Below, in pieces: positions 976 to 58,022 of a DNA stretch of 64,000 bases (position 1 is its first letter; the number at the start of each line of letters is the position of its first letter). The notes beneath the pieces were generated by a model. That model worked only from the letters and a program-made list of their open reading frames with translations. It was not told the DNA's origin and made no database searches. The translations under genes were made by a program, and so were the position numbers. This DNA is from Octopus sinensis. Lineage: Eukaryota. The stretch covers positions 5,518,001-5,582,000 of the forward strand of contig NC_043022.1 of assembly GCF_006345805.1 (NCBI RefSeq), read 5' to 3'.

Positions 976-1016
976 TAGGGACACGTGTTTCAGGATGATT
1001 GTCCTTCGTCGGCCTA
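976..1016 (-). ncRNA. Type I hammerhead ribozyme motif (CCGACGA core variant)
   Basis: Minus strand: TAGG CCGACGA AGGA-caatca-TCCT GAAA CACGTG TC CCTA. Stem I TAGG/CCTA, stem II AGGA/TCCT, palindromic stem III, GUC site. Confidence 0.75.
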
Positions 1017-1139
1017 TATATATATATATATTGTATGTATGCGTTTATTTCCTGAGCGCCATACTAATACAATTGTTCGTTTGTTTTCCACCTGCCTTCG
1101 TCTTTTGTTTATTTTCATAAAGCTTCCCGTTATATATAT

Positions 1140-1335
1140 CGTGTGTGTGTGTGTGTGTGTGTGTGTGTCTGCGTTTGTCCCTGTAACCTAGCAGTTCAGC
1201 AAAAGAGACCAATAGAACAAGTACCATGCTTAAAAAATAAGTCCTGGAGGTCGAGGTTGCTTGGCTAAAACCCTTCAAGGTGGTGCCCCAGCATGGCCGC
1301 AGTCAAAGGACTGAAACAAGTTAAATTTAGAAGGT
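1140..1335 (+). mobile_element. SINE family A, 3' half
   Basis: (TG)n followed by cttagcagttcagcaaaagagacc...ccagcatggccgcagtc...actgaaacaag, matching full copies at 25222 and 58968. Confidence 0.85.
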
Positions 1336-1712
1336 AAAAAATACAGTAAGATATTGATAGATTCAAAATGCCAGACGCAGCACCGAAGATTTTCAAAACC
1401 ATTTTTTTCACACCCAGAATTGTTGAATCACAGACTAAATTATCCACATCAGTCATTAGCTGTCGAGACACTTTATCCTTCCAAAATTCTCAGCTTCTTC
1501 AAATGTACCGCCCCTCCCCACCCCGGCCATGTGCCTTGCACTCTTTTCTCTGCGGTTTTGCTCTTGTTATCCTCTGTTCCACGATTGCCATTCTAGCTTT
1601 CATTGCTCTGCTTTCTCTCCCCTCTTCTACTCTTTTCTGTTGAGTTACTGTACTGCACCTGAGCTCCACACACAGCCAACTCCCCCTCCTCCTCCTCATC
1701 ATCATCATCACA

Positions 1713-2002
1713 TAATAATAATAATATAATAATAATAATAATAATAATAAAATAATAATAATAATAATAAAATATAATAATATAATAATATAATAAATAA
1801 TAATGATATGATAATAATGATAATAATAATAATAATAATGATAATAATAATAATAATAATATAAAATAATAATAATGATAATAATATAATAATGATAATA
1901 ATGATAATAATAATAATAATAATAATGATAATAATAATAATAATGATAATAATGATAATAATAATAATAATAATAATAATAATAAAAATGATAATGATAA
2001 TA
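1713..2002. repeat. (AAT)n microsatellite
   Basis: Imperfect AAT/GAT trinucleotide tract. Confidence 0.95.
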
Positions 2003-2455
2003 AGGCAGTGAGCTGGCAGAGTTGTTAGAATGCTGGGCAAAATGCTTAGCAGTATTTTGCCTGTCTTTATGTTCTGAGTTCAAATTCTGCTGAGGTCGAC
2101 TTTGCCTTTCATCCTTTCAGGGTCTATAAATTAAGTACCAATTAAGTACTTAGGTGAATCTAATTGACTGCCCCCCACCCAAAACTAGTTCAGGCCTTGT
2201 TCCTATAGCAGAAAGGATTATAATAATTATTATTATTATTAAGGCAGTGAGCTGGCAGAATTGTTAGCATGCTGGGCAAAATGTTTAGCGGTATTTTGTC
2301 TGCTGCTACGTTCTGAGTTTAAATTTCCGCCAAGGTCGACTTTGCCTTTCATCCTATTGGGGTTGATAAATTAAGTACCAATGAAACACTGGGGTCGATG
2401 TGATTGACTAGTCCCCTCCCCTCAAATTTCAGGCCTTGTGCCTATAGTATTATTA
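2003..2455 (+). mobile_element. Two head-to-tail SINE family B copies
   Basis: Each copy reads ggcagtgagctggcaga..gttagca...gttctgagttcaaatt...ggtcgactttgcctttcatcct...taagtacca and ends in an (ATT)n tail. Copies start at about 2003 and 2242. Confidence 0.85.
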
Positions 2456-2639
2456 TTTGACTGCCTGGCTTTTAATTCCTCAAGTCAAAAAGCAAGGATT
2501 GAAAGAAAGAGTGTGTGTGTGTGTGTGTGTGTGTGTGTGTGTGTGCAAAGGAATTTCAGCTGCCCTTATATAGCTAGTTTGGTCTTGTTTGGTTGATGTA
2601 TCTAAATGGAAGATCCAGATACTGTATGTTTTTTTCCCT

Positions 2640-3062
2640 CAGAGTCTAGAGCATCAATCCAGTTTATCAAAATTATGAATGCTGCGTAATGCCTAAATGA
2701 GTAGGATTGTGACTACAAAGGGTTGAAAAGGGGATCCTCTGAAAGGCCCCTGGAGTAATGTTACTTGACACGGTGCACAGCTTAGAGATGAGAAAGTCTC
2801 TCAAGGTCCAGTCACAATTTCTCTGCATCAACAGTTACCTGGTGCTACAGACCTGTGATTAAAATGTCGCTGGAAAGAATCGCAAGATGGATTTTCAAGC
2901 TGAGCCAAGCAGCGGAAGACTCAGGAAGAGACCATAAGAAAGCGGTTGGCCATACCTGGGAATCCAACCTGATGGTGATTGCTTTTGATAGCCCCCTACA
3001 GAGCAGGTACCTAAGGATTATCCTTCCAAGCCACCCAGGTGAAGTGGATAAAGAAAAGGGAT
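2640..3062 (+). mobile_element. Degenerate RTE-clade (Rex3/Expander-like) LINE 3' fragment
   Basis: Broken translation LLDTVHSLEMRKSLKVQSQFLCI...IKMSLERIARWIF...GRLRKRP resembles the RTE ORF C-terminus (RDRVRSS..RE.L.VEPLLL.IER...RMP..R.....GRRPRGRP). The 3' end gaagtggataaagaaaagggatg resembles the Rex3 tail. Confidence 0.6.
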
Positions 3063-54524: not shown

Positions 54525-54631
54525 TTTTACAGCCATATCAGGTTCAATGTACGAGTTCTCATCTGATCAATGAAGTTAAGCAACACTGACCCTCATGACT
54601 ACTTAGATGGGTAACCCCTTAGGAACCATGC
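54525..54631 (+). pseudogene. Degenerate 5S rRNA copy (duplicate)
   Basis: Same sequence in the second duplication unit. Confidence 0.8.
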
Positions 54632-56094
54632 TAGACCAAGCATCACCTTCACTGCCCATGTATAGCTATGACACAAGCATGGCTGTGGTCATAGAGAAGT
54701 TCACTTCCCAACAATGGGTTTTGGGTTCAGTCCCACGATGTGGAAACTAGGGAAGTGTCATCTAAGATAGAACTGGGCCAACGAAAGCCTTGTGAAAGAA
54801 TGTGATAGGCACTGAAATAAACCCATCATGTGTGTGTGTGTGTGTGTGTGTGTGTGTATACACACACATCTTCTATCCTCTACTTGCTTCAGTCATTAGA
54901 CTGTGGTCATGCTGGGGCACTACTCTGAAGAACTTTTAGCTGAATGAATCAACCACAGGGCTTATTTTTTTTTTTAGCCTGGGACTTATTCTCTTGGCCC
55001 GTCTGCTTGACCACTAAGTTACAGGGATGTAAACACACCAACACTGGTTGTCAAGCAGTGGGAAGGCACAAACACAGACACAAACACACACATACATACA
55101 CAAATATTATATATATATATATATATATGTATATATATGATGGTCTTCTTCCAGTTTCTGTCTACCAAATCCACTCACAAGGCTTTGGTGAGTCTGAGGC
55201 AATATAAGAAGATGCTTGCCATAAGAGTCACACACCAGGATTGAACCAGAGACCACATGGTTGGGAAGCAAACTTCTTACCACACAGCCATGGTTTGTAT
55301 GTCTATCTGTCTATACATGTATGTATGTATGTATGTATGTATGTACGTATGCATGTAAGTGTATATGTATGTATGAATATCTGTCAGTACATATGTATGT
55401 GTAAATATGTATGCATGTATATATGCATGCATGTATGTGTGTGTGTATATATGTATGTGTATCTATATGTATGTCTGTATGTATGTATGTATGTATGTAT
55501 GTATGTATGTATGTATATATGTATGTATGTACGTGTGAATGTGTGTTTGTCTGTCTGTCTGTCTGTCTATGTATGTATGTATGTATGTATGTGTGTGTGC
55601 GTATGCGTGTATGTACATGTGTATGTGTGTGCATAATACCTGCTAGCAATGGCTTTGCTCATATACAAGAAAGTAGCCCCGATGTATGTATGTACGCATG
55701 TACTTGCGTATGTGCACACATGAGTGAGTTTGTGTTTCCATCCTCCGCCTGTGTTTGTCGATGAATTCAAACAATGGCAACACCAAAGGCATCATAGTCT
55801 TGCAGTCCACCAGGGGAACATGCCAGGACCTCATTACATGTTCTGACATGTTTTCACAGTCTTTGCAAACAAAATCAAAACTCGTTCCCACAGCGCCATT
55901 CATTTCTGATTTTCCATGTAAACACATCCGAGTCGTTCCTTCTTTGATAGACGAGGAAGGATTATTACATCAACAGAAAACAACCAAAAAAGGTTGGCAA
56001 CAGGAAAGGCATCTACACACAGACAATCTTGCTCTAATGTACTTTTATCTAACATATGCAAGCATGGGAAAGTAAACATTACAATGATGATGAT

Positions 56095-57270
56095 GGTGAT
56101 ATACATATATATATATATACACACACACACACACACACACATATTATACATGTATATATATATATATACACACACATATATATACACACACACACACACA
56201 ACACACACACATATATATATATATATATACATACATATATATATATACATATACACACACATATATATACTTATATATGTATGTGTGTGTAAAAATGTAT
56301 ATATATTTCTATATATGTTGTTTATATGTGTGCATATGTGTGGTGTGTATATATATATGTATATATATGTATATACATGTACAGATATATATGTATATAT
56401 ATATATATATATATATATGTATATAGTATATACATATATATATATATATGTTATATATATATATATATATATATATATATGTATATATGTATATACATAT
56501 ATATATATATATGTATATACATATATATAATATGTAATACATATATATATATATGTATATATATATATATACATGTATATACATATATATATACATGTAT
56601 ATACATATATATACATATATATATATATAATATACATTACATATTATATATACATATACACACACATATATATACTTATATGTATGTGTGTGTAAAAATG
56701 TATAATATTTCTATATATGTTGTTTATATGTGTGCATATGTGTGTGTGTATATATATGTGTATATATATAATGTATATACATGTACAGATATTATGTATA
56801 TATATATATTATATATTGTATATATGTATATACATATATATATGTATATATATATATATATATGTATATATGTATATATATATATATATGTATATACATC
56901 ATATAATATATATGTATATACATATATATATATATGTATTATATATATAACATTGTATATACATATATATATGCATTGTATATACATATATATATACATG
57001 TATATACATTATATACATATATATTATATATAAATATATATATGTATATACACATATATATATATATACATGTATATACATATATATACACATATACATG
57101 TATATACATATATATATATATATGTATATATGTATATAAATATATATATATGTATATACACACACATATATATATACATATATATATACATACATATATA
57201 TATATATACATATATGTATGTATGTATGTATGTATGTATATATGTATATATATATATATACATGCATGCA
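56095..57270. repeat. Long compound (TA)/(TACA) microsatellite with a ~400-bp higher-order duplication
   Basis: Anchor gtgtgtgtaaaaatgtat...ttctatatatgttgtttatatgtgtgcatatg recurs near 56283 and 56686. Confidence 0.9.
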
Positions 57271-57375
57271 TACACACCAATAAAGTGACATAAATCTATA
57301 TTTCAATGCAATATAGATCTATAACAAGTCAATATTATCAAATTAAAACTTAAAATTGATCGCTGCAAATAAAGA

Positions 57376-57516
57376 ATGTCTGACGAGGGGCACAAACAAT
57401 GATAATTATTTTGTTTTATGGCATATTAATTAGATGCAATGTCTTTATTACGTATCTAATAAATGTGGAGGCAGAGAAGTTTAAAAACTGTTTGTTTACT
57501 GAAACTATCATTACAT
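57376..57516 (+). ncRNA. Degenerate hammerhead-like motif with very long stem II
   Basis: ATGT CTGACGA ggggcACAAACA...TGTTTGTttact GAAA ctatca TT ACAT. Stem III is unpaired. Confidence 0.4.
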
Positions 57517-57977
57517 CAATTAGAATTTGTCTTTTCCTCATATTAATTACTATGATATATACCTGTACATAAGCACATGTGCAGGTATATATATGTATGT
57601 GTGTGTGTGTGTGTATATATATATATATATATACGTGTGTGTGTGTGTACAATTAATATGAGAAAAAGAGAAATCCAGATAGTGATGATCTCATACACAC
57701 AGACACGTATAAATATATACGTGTATATACAAATGCCTATGCATACATGCATATAGTTGTGTGTGTGTGTGTGTGTGTGTGTGTGTGTGTGTGTAGATAT
57801 ATATATATATATCGTGATGCATATTTGCCATTTGAATATGGCTAACCCATAAGGGTGGATACTACTGTAGTTTGTAGCCCCAGGAAGATATCTCCTCCAG
57901 CTGGCTATAGACACACTATCTGTGTCCTCTCAGTATTTGTGAAGGGGAGTCATCCTCCCCGCCTTCAACACATGATA

Positions 57978-58022
57978 CACACGTACCCAAGTTTCAAGGT
58001 GTTTACCTTTCATCAGCGTGTG
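57978..58022 (-). ncRNA. Canonical type I hammerhead in a TA-flanked PLE-like element (about 57812-58095)
   Basis: Minus strand: CACACG CTGATGA AAGGT-aaac-ACCTT GAAA CTTGGG TA CGTGTG. 6-bp stem I, 5-bp stem II, wobble-palindromic stem III, GUA site. Confidence 0.88.

What the first reader, a model, noticed from the sequence alone, without database searches (positions are those of the whole stretch)
976..58022. Dense hidden population of hammerhead ribozymes: about 15 motifs from roughly a dozen unrelated small elements in 64 kb
Seen: complete type I topology (stem I - CUGANGA - stem II - GAAA - stem III - UH - stem I') at 976(-), 13605(+), 14035(+), 17675(+), 20015(+), 20363(+), 23676(-), 23897(+), 28359(-), 31677(+), 32371(-), 53187(-), 54312(-), 57376(+) and 57978(-), plus a half motif at 41391(-). 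Stem sequences differ between families but stay complementary, which argues against chance. Established: Penelope-like elements carry type I HHRs in their pseudo-LTRs, and non-autonomous retrozymes use tandem HHRs. Inference: at about one per 4 kb, this genome could hold a very large, diverse and probably unannotated set of HHR-bearing PLE/retrozyme-like families. Active copies inside introns could cleave host pre-mRNA.
Basis: partly seen in the sequence, partly recalled or inferred. Interest (0 to 1): 0.85.

Follow-up and report, generated by a model that had tools for sequence, protein, structure and literature searches.

The report
Hammerheads host a promoter-landing retrotransposon
The self-cutting-RNA (hammerhead) motifs in this window are real but mostly decayed remains of known Penelope-type jumping genes; following one of them revealed a LINE retrotransposon family that sits again and again about 30 bases behind a TATA-like box, the likely transcription start, in hammerhead repeats, a histone H4 gene and likely zinc-finger gene promoters, and at the first base of a U2 gene, a landing rule I did not find in print.

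Summary
Observation partly confirmed. 11 of the 15 'complete' motifs pass a tolerant hammerhead descriptor (window 12 hits, shuffles 0.7). Only 8 keep an intact core; 4 are degenerate. They are relics of about 14 repeat families of Penelope pseudo-LTR or non-LTR retrozyme type, a known class. Sampled genome density is about 1 per 16 kb, so the window is about 3-fold richer than average. No cleavage, expression or host intron was shown.

The new result lies outside the window. The 57978 element, a 355-nt retrozyme, carries an empty target site for an L1/Tx1-like LINE lineage. Of 60 LINE 3' ends, 50 sit just upstream of this hammerhead family and 7 are tandem copies at the duplicated target; duplications are 13-18 nt. 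Sister subfamilies enter other retrozymes, histone H4, U2 (+1) and C2H2 zinc-finger clusters. 12 of 16 unrelated targets have a TATA-like box at -33 to -25 (background 16%). One copy carries a leader from a previous target. The LINE likely lands at transcription starts and borrows the promoter; how it is guided is untested.

The parts
57812..58097 (-). 5'-truncated copy of the 355-nt retrozyme unit (RzA) with inverted tail, between (TA)n tracts
   Evidence: unit length; tandem arrays at 353-354 nt spacing
57978..58022 (-). Type I hammerhead, intact core at 58016, predicted cut after 57984
   Evidence: family covariation
58024..58041 (-). Empty insertion site of the L1/Tx1-like LINE (the stretch duplicated in occupied copies); likely transcription start of the retrozyme
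974..1017 (-). Hammerhead with U4C change; its family is also a LINE target (L044/L092, L368)
1046..1139 (+). Fragment of the terminal repeat of the young Neptune-like PLE, 99-100% identical
13543..13670 (.). Palindromic pair of damaged hammerheads (cores 13602- and 13611+), same family as 23676
14034..14085 (+). Degenerate hammerhead (stem II kept, stems I and III decayed)
17676..17717 (+). Old hammerhead, intact core, weak stems; small family (24 candidates)
20014..20073 (+). Damaged copy of a family that is intact elsewhere
20363..20471 (+). Long-stem-II hammerhead with two core changes
23676..23724 (-). Hammerhead, intact core, in an inverted pair
23897..23931 (+). Minimal hammerhead (U4C, bulged base before stem II) of PLE terminal-repeat type
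28359..28455 (-). Long-stem-II hammerhead, intact core
31677..31764 (+). Long-stem-II hammerhead, intact core
32371..32418 (-). Hammerhead, intact core, 1x1 mismatch at the foot of stem II
41385..41460 (-). Half hammerhead inside the 41262-41609 palindrome
53187..53269 (-). Long-stem-II hammerhead, first copy in a 1.1-kb duplication
54312..54394 (-). Duplicate of 53187
57376..57520 (+). Very degenerate relic, about 115 nt between the core halves; not a complete motif

Best explanation
The window's hammerheads are mostly decayed copies of about 14 repeat families likely spread by Penelope-type machinery, and one of them (57978) holds an empty landing site for an L1/Tx1-like LINE lineage that inserts about 30 nt behind a TATA-like box, the likely transcription start, and likely borrows that promoter. 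Shown: motif reality, family structure, LINE domains, precise junctions, target-site duplications, tandem stacking, TATA spacing across unrelated targets, and a leader from another target at one LINE 5' end. Inferred: (1) the insertion point is +1 of a Pol II promoter; (2) the LINE has no promoter of its own, so its RNA starts with the first 13-18 nt of its host unit; (3) the endonuclease is brought to, or prefers, the opened start region, and pairing of flank-derived RNA with the nicked DNA biases each subfamily towards the family its donor sits in; (4) in retrozymes the hammerhead about 58 nt downstream could trim the read-through RNA, but this is optional because several targets have no hammerhead.
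For: 3' ends: 28 of 30 and 22 of 30 are followed by the hammerhead family at one position; 1 and 6 more are tandem LINEs or derivatives separated by the target duplicate. 5' ends: 28 of 30 are preceded by the upstream half of the retrozyme, 1 by another LINE. Duplications carry locus-specific variants on both sides. Public contigs of three coded organisms span the empty site with 17-20 ambiguous letters. LINE 3' ends are 96.7% and 98.0% identical within subfamilies, their flanks 90.3% and 80.6%. 5'-truncated LINEs lie inside retrozymes (L084, L088, L092). Sister subfamilies enter three other hammerhead families, tandem repeats X, Y and Z, histone H4, U2 and zinc-finger clusters. A TATAWAW match (1 mismatch allowed) starts at -33 to -25 in 12 of 15 target families, against 1-3 of 15 in six other windows and 16% of random positions; 12 of 16 with the Gypsy site added, binomial p 3.5e-7. 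U2 insertion is at Rfam model position 1. An empty H4 allele has its TATA at -30 from the site. In 19 loci fetched after the idea was noted, 9 of 11 readable 5' junctions fit. At the U2 site the LINE 5' end carries a piece of the retrozyme target. Targets X, Y, Z, t339 and t347 are mixed inside one shallow clade.
Against: No start site was mapped; TATA-like words are common in this AT-rich genome (16%), and the window was chosen after I saw the pattern, though it matches the textbook position. Non-fitting sites: t329 (in an LTR-element gag-pro frame), t338, Gypsy L283, L313 (antisense in a retrozyme), L331, L333, L353, and the 3' side of L275 (PLE ORF). 8 of the 19 later loci were unreadable (6 tandem, 1 truncated, 1 deleted), and only 2 of the 11 readable ones were new targets. 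Several off-target sites resemble the donor's usual target in sequence, which favours sequence recognition. Five truncated LINEs lack the upstream retrozyme half (L021, L022, L085, L089, L090). The two duplicates differ by 1-2 letters in 6 of 14 paired loci. Some rows are segmental duplicates or the query itself. No autonomous PLE partner was found for RzA.
Confidence: 0.7

Rival explanations
1. Each LINE subfamily has an ordinary sequence-specific endonuclease, as in other Tx1 elements. Sites coincide with transcription starts only because promoter-less copies elsewhere are never transcribed and die out.
For: RzA-targeting copies form two clades and RzC copies one. Off-target sites share letters with the usual target: U2 and the PLE ORF with the third RzA subfamily, t329 with Y, the Gypsy site with RzA. 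Endonuclease-set specificity is the stated rule for Tx1 (PMC4494074, passages).
Against: Nearly identical LINEs use unrelated sequences. Rarely hit targets (U2, t334, t347, one H4 locus) also fit the start-site rule, which survivor bias explains poorly. At least 15 unrelated targets share the spacing.
Confidence: 0.2
2. A LINE entered a retrozyme once or a few times, and the composite was then copied by Penelope machinery (hitchhiking).
For: Five truncated copies keep the downstream hammerhead half but lack the upstream half; L275 has a retrozyme 5' flank and an unrelated 3' flank; composite ends look like solo retrozyme ends.
Against: Flanks are more diverged than the LINEs; duplications are locus-specific; LINEs stack in tandem, also across subfamilies; different truncations lie inside intact targets; H4, U2 and zinc-finger sites cannot arise this way. 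It may explain a minority of copies.
Confidence: 0.06
3. The window's hammerheads are mainly active ribozymes that cut host pre-mRNA.
For: 8 of 15 keep an intact core; stems I and II form in minimum-energy folds of most of the 8 segments folded; density is high.
Against: Short palindromic stem III implies dimer dependence, and monomeric minimal motifs were inactive in PMC4209133 (results read). The 32371 family shows a neutral-decay pattern. No host gene was found in the window.
Confidence: 0.1
4. The motifs are chance matches in repetitive, AT-rich DNA.
For: One extra hit (3687-) and reversed-control hits show a false-positive tail; 57376 is barely recognisable.
Against: 5 against 0.03 and 12 against 0.7 in shuffles; 19,727 against 1,529 genome-wide; 13 of 18 pairs with two-sided change in RzA.
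Confidence: 0.01

Closest known systems
Non-LTR retrozymes of animals (Cervera and de la Pena 2020, PMC7229834, passages read; Li, Clavereau and Pollet 2026, 10.64898/2026.07.22.740005, part 1 of 5 and passages read)
   Same: 150-450-nt non-coding units with a type I hammerhead, tandem and dispersed, beside autonomous PLEs; mussel units are 350-390 nt, RzA is 355 nt.
   Different: Octopods are not mentioned in PMC7229834 ('octopus' 0 hits). The 2026 preprint has no hit for 'promoter', 'TATA' or 'Tx1'. Here the units carry a TATA-like box and are parasitised by a LINE. Circular RNA was not tested.
Minimal hammerheads in PLE pseudo-LTRs (Cervera and de la Pena 2014, PMC4209133, parts 1-2 of 4 read)
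   Same: Massive dispersed heterogeneous motifs, opposite-strand pairs, a bulged base after position 9, palindromic stem III, the U3-A8 core variant (seen here in RzC).
   Different: Several families here have an extra base on both sides of the foot of stem II (unpaired in 19 of 23 and 11 of 22 rows) or 50-115-nt stem II; the young Neptune-like family has an A6U core.
Target-specific Tx1-clade LINEs: Tx1L (in Tx1D), Keno (U2), Kibi and Koshi, Mutsu (5S), Dewa, Tx1-Mar, Tx1-8_Crp (PMC4494074 passages and section 20; PMC4640811 and PMC3706591 passages)
   Same: APE-RT LINE, precise site in a multi-copy target including other transposons, target-site duplication, tandem insertion; dependence on flank transcription has been proposed for SINEU and is known for R2.
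   Different: Each described family has one target class set by sequence. This lineage uses at least 15 unrelated targets that share a position relative to a TATA-like box. The U2 hit is at +1, whereas Keno is described as inserted into U2 genes (the exact Keno site was not read). Retrozymes, H4 and zinc-finger promoters did not appear as targets in what I read.
Position-specific elements tethered by host factors: TRE5-A (Dictyostelium, tRNA genes) and Tf1 (Pol II promoters) (PMC3706591 passages); Ty3 at Pol III start sites (recalled, no call)
   Same: Insertion defined by position relative to a promoter rather than by sequence.
   Different: TRE5-A and Tf1 land near, not at fixed points inside, their targets (PMC3706591). 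Ty3 is an LTR element at Pol III genes. Here a LINE lands at the apparent +1 of Pol II units, in sense orientation. No tether was tested.

Membership tests
Type I hammerhead ribozyme | CUGANGA and GAAA core with UH triplet | tested here: met
   Intact in 8 of 15 window motifs; altered or unrecognisable in 7
Type I hammerhead ribozyme | Three helices supported by covariation | tested here: met
   RzA: 91.9% of cells paired, 13 of 18 pairs changed on both sides, 0 of 500 shuffles. 32371 family: 83% paired, no covariation beyond shuffles
Type I hammerhead ribozyme | Self-cleavage | not testable with these tools
   Needs in vitro assay
Non-LTR retrozyme (RzA, 57978) | Tandem 150-450-nt non-coding unit with type I hammerhead | tested here: met
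   355-nt unit; arrays at 353-354 nt spacing; partial tandems
Non-LTR retrozyme (RzA, 57978) | Expressed as linear and circular RNA | tested here: inconclusive
   No holder on record as RNA; contigs cannot show circles or ends
Non-LTR retrozyme (RzA, 57978) | Mobilised by an autonomous PLE | tested here: inconclusive
   PLE-type inversions, tails and (TA)n flanks; no PLE ORF in the 20 RzA loci
PLE pseudo-LTR hammerhead (23897 type) | Motif in both repeats flanking an RT + GIY-YIG ORF | tested here: met
   L204 and L208, a related family, not the window copy; RT by Pfam; GIY-YIG and cysteine linker read from the sequence, no Pfam hit; the 'Neptune' label rests on the linker description in PMC8557442
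Tx1-clade LINE | ORF1 zinc knuckle; ORF2 APE + RT + C-terminal zinc finger | tested here: met
   Pfam; nearest solved structure human L1 ORF2, E 2e-66
Tx1-clade LINE | Precise insertion into multi-copy targets with target-site duplication | tested here: met
Tx1-clade LINE | RT phylogeny groups it with reference Tx1 elements | not tested
   No named Tx1 reference among the hits; hence 'L1/Tx1-like'
Tx1-clade LINE | One target class per family, set by endonuclease sequence preference | tested here: not met
   Many unrelated targets inside one shallow clade; partial subfamily preference remains
Promoter-tethered position-specific elements (TRE5-A, Tf1) | Fixed position relative to a promoter element | tested here: met
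Promoter-tethered position-specific elements (TRE5-A, Tf1) | Element protein binds a host transcription factor | not tested
   No partner sequence in hand; no complex job run

The most novel reading that the evidence does not exclude
An octopod LINE lineage has become a promoter-less parasite of RNA polymerase II start sites. It is guided to +1 by the transcription-initiation machinery, hops between promoters of hammerhead retrozymes, histone, snRNA and C2H2 zinc-finger genes, keeps a stack of former start sequences at its 5' end, and uses the retrozyme hammerhead as a borrowed 3'-end cutter. It would be the first LINE with base-precise Pol II start-site targeting and would sit on the promoters of the expanded octopus zinc-finger clusters.
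Probability: 0.4. Interest if true: 0.9.

Novelty: new variant of a known kind. Interest (0 to 1): 0.72.

Why it matters
The hammerhead census is a new host for a known class (roughly 10^5 recognisable motifs by extrapolation) and is of modest interest. The LINE matters more. Target-specific LINEs are described as reading a DNA sequence; this lineage appears to follow promoter position across unrelated sequences. It makes testable how a LINE chooses and switches targets. It marks candidate promoters and start sites for retrozymes, which the papers I read do not map. It occupies 8 of 11 printed copies of a promoter-like unit in C2H2 zinc-finger clusters, a family known to be expanded in octopuses (recalled). 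Copies with unbroken reading frames exist (L316: 384 and 1181 aa), so the system may be open to experiment, and start-site-directed insertion would interest genome engineers.

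Tried and rejected
Rfam scan: output dominated by microsatellite-driven miRNA matches, no hammerhead among the 150 shown. First covariation count used a mis-registered structure and is void (corrected in 55). A position-ordered, unranked count of LINE 3' ends was not obtained, so the junction tallies come from rank-ordered hits. 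A final scripted tally of zinc-finger promoter occupancy, leader relics and junction-to-cut distances was not run; those figures are read by eye. Sequencing runs: no RNA holder listed; the laid contigs show presence of the LINE in four runs and of empty sites in three, nothing on expression or ends. Search for PLE ORFs beside RzA, 32371, 31677 and 53187 loci: 1 weak hit in 80 loci, none in the window. Host gene in window: none. tRNA or other Rfam targets among the protein-selected LINE loci: none except a U2 gene near L367. U1 identity of the L367 site: 5' letters match the U1 start as I recall it, Rfam did not confirm. The junction script stopped after L097; earlier rows are used, and three duplications it misplaced (L313, L351, L352) were re-read. 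Considered and rejected: that the LINE 3' UTR itself contains the hammerhead (empty sites and duplications show a target); that it is Keno (only 1 of 60 ends at U2). Paper searches found no report of octopus hammerheads, of a Tx1 in retrozymes, or of start-site targeting by a LINE. Kojima and Fujiwara 2004, Repbase entries and all supplements were not seen and could hold a prior description.

Full report
Setting. The window is G000:C26:5518001-5582000 of a 2.72-Gb, microsatellite-rich animal genome. An octopod host is inferred: the closest named relative of the LINE protein found here is from Argonauta hians, 58% identical, and the genome has tandem C2H2 zinc-finger clusters.

1. Observation. 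A strict descriptor finds 5 motifs against 0.03 in shuffles. Cervera and de la Pena 2014 (PMC4209133, parts 1-2 of 4 read) describe an unpaired base before stem II in PLE hammerheads, so I allowed extra bases and up to two core mismatches. That gives 12 hits against 0.7 in 40 shuffles. 13605, 14035, 20015 and 57376 do not pass, but relatives show they are relics. The motifs fall into about 14 families. Five searched families have hundreds to thousands of copies; 17675 has 24 candidates and 57376 two partial ones. A generic exact-core pattern occurs 19,727 times against 1,529 for its reversed control. In 360 kb sampled at round coordinates there were 27 hits against 5 reversed, about 1 per 16 kb, or roughly 1.6 x 10^5 by crude extrapolation. 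The window is about three times richer than that. Covariation is strong in the 57978 family (13 of 18 pairs, 0 of 500 shuffles) and absent in the 32371 family.

2. What the motifs are. The 57978 family (RzA) is a circularly permuted 355-nt non-coding unit. It occurs as partial tandems, inverted pairs and arrays in (TA)n. This fits non-LTR retrozymes (PMC7229834, passages) and the PLE insertion pattern (PMC8557442, passages). A young autonomous element with RT, a cysteine linker and a GIY-YIG-type C-terminus (6976 candidates) has a minimal hammerhead of the 23897 type after its ORF in 8 of 10 loci, on both sides in L204 and L208. Window 1046-1139 is a piece of its repeat. No autonomous partner for RzA was found. 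This part is a new host for a known class.

3. The LINE. Three of 19 RzA relatives were joined to a LINE. A full copy (L023) has ORF1 with a zinc knuckle and ORF2 with endonuclease, RT and zinc finger, flanked by an 18-19-nt duplication that repeats a locus-specific variant. Of 30 top-ranked 3' ends, 28 run into a hammerhead element 24-25 nt before the core, 1 into another LINE and 1 into a Gypsy-like ORF. Of 30 5' ends, 28 follow the upstream half of the retrozyme. A third subfamily, about 81% identical, gave 22 RzA, 6 tandem, 1 U2 and 1 PLE-ORF flank among 30. Each set is 30 of 40 scored hits and includes the query and a few segmental duplicates. LINE ends are more alike than their flanks, truncated copies sit inside targets, and three copies stack at one site. 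Public contigs bridge the empty site in coded organisms A, B and C and cover the LINE in A-D. Insertion is therefore repeated and independent. Against this, five truncated copies lack the upstream half. The window's own copy is an empty site at 58024-58041.

4. The wider rule. A protein search with the endonuclease (best 150 of 10,443 candidates) gave further subfamilies. I fetched 40 loci and then 19 more. Their targets include three more hammerhead families (RzB, RzC, RzD), tandem repeats X, Z and t347, an intron-bearing repeat Y, a histone H4 gene 26 nt before its start codon, and a repeated unit lying 2.3 kb upstream of a 634-codon C2H2 zinc-finger frame on the same strand (the splice link is inferred). 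These sequences are unrelated, yet 12 of 15 families have a TATAWAW match at -33 to -25 from the start of the duplication. Other windows give 1-3 of 15 and random positions 16%. Adding the Gypsy site gives 12 of 16, p 3.5e-7. One 'miss' is U2, a TATA-less gene hit at Rfam position 1. An empty H4 allele has TATA at -30. Among the 19 later loci, 11 had readable 5' junctions and 9 fit; the misses were a rearranged zinc-finger site and a site that matches the U1 start as I recall it. Families W and V also fit. Sites that do not fit: t329, t338, L283, L313, L331, L333, L353 and the 3' side of L275. On a tree of 59 copies (2 left out for short matches), RzA copies form two clades, RzC one, and X, Y, Z, t339 and t347 mix in one shallow clade.

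5. Mechanism. At the U2 site the order is U2 duplicate, then about 17 nt of the retrozyme target, then the LINE. Other 5' ends show similar stacked pieces by eye. The simplest reading is that LINE RNA starts at the host's +1 and carries the donor's duplicate (inferred). A promoter-less LINE can only persist downstream of a start site, and rarely hit sites at H4, U2 and t334 suggest real targeting rather than survival alone. Subfamily preference and sequence-like off-targets suggest a second, homology-based layer: flank-derived RNA or endonuclease preference (untested). The 3' ends are precise, with a polyadenylation-like signal and no poly(A) tail, which fits read-through RNA. In RzA the hammerhead would cut about 58 nt downstream (counted). 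H4 and zinc-finger targets have no such motif, so this role is optional.

6. Comparison and novelty. Tx1 elements that target snRNA, 5S, microsatellites and other transposons are known (PMC4494074, PMC4640811, PMC3706591; passages). TRE5-A and Tf1 are promoter-tethered but land near, not at fixed points in, their targets. A 2026 Octopus vulgaris repeat paper lists 13 recently active L1-Tx1 families and has no hit for 'ribozyme' or 'hammerhead' (PMC13282606, part 1 of 3 and passages). Searches found no prior report. Repbase, Kojima and Fujiwara 2004 and supplements were not seen. Unchecked notes from this scan describe Tx1 or L1 LINEs at the TATA box of LTRs in other genomes, a related but single-target theme. 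Tx1 membership by phylogeny was not tested.

7. Verdict. The finding as written is real, overstated and of a known kind (about 0.35 alone). The LINE reached through it is a new variant of site-specific LINEs with a start-site rule that is well supported by sequence and unproven by RNA data. Overall interest 0.72.

Noticed in passing
L204-L211 (e.g. L204:1231, 5739): The young, high-copy Neptune-like PLE has a hammerhead core with position 6 changed from A (to U; to C in one L208 copy) in 8 of 10 loci fetched; it may spread without an active ribozyme.
   Followed up: no
window 32371, 53187, 23676, 57978 families: An extra base on both sides of the foot of stem II, usually unpaired (19 of 23 rows; 11 of 22), recurs in several families; I did not find this 1x1 form in the parts of PMC4209133 that I read.
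   Followed up: partly
L278:7640-9240: A 1.6-kb ORF1-only element with a zinc knuckle shares the LINE's 3' end and target: a likely non-autonomous derivative.
   Followed up: no
L380, L382, L383: A second, different LINE 3' end sits at the same zinc-finger promoter site.
   Followed up: no
L351, L352, L363-L366: Target family RzC has the U3-A8 core variant and a unit of about 430 nt.
   Followed up: partly
L335, L349 downstream flank: Target Y has a TATA box, an apparent intron and hammerhead-like pieces after the acceptor, as in a PLE terminal repeat.
   Followed up: no
L367: LINE 5' end abuts letters matching the recalled U1 start, with a U2 gene nearby on the other strand; the 3' flank is not recognised by Rfam.
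   Followed up: partly
L310:1250-1800: A 96-nt tandem array built from a decayed 17675-type hammerhead.
   Followed up: no
window 53402-53518 and 54525-54641: 5S rRNA-like sequence, 37.9 bits against a cut-off of 38, inside the 1.1-kb duplication 52840-55138.
   Followed up: no
window 30880-31580: 62-nt tandem array of about 11 copies derived from a dispersed repeat.
   Followed up: no
window 976-1139; L002, L092, L275, L292: Retrozyme copies often lie next to fragments of PLE terminal repeats across a (TA)n tract; not counted against chance.
   Followed up: no
window about 21.7-21.9 kb: A 100-N assembly gap.
   Followed up: no
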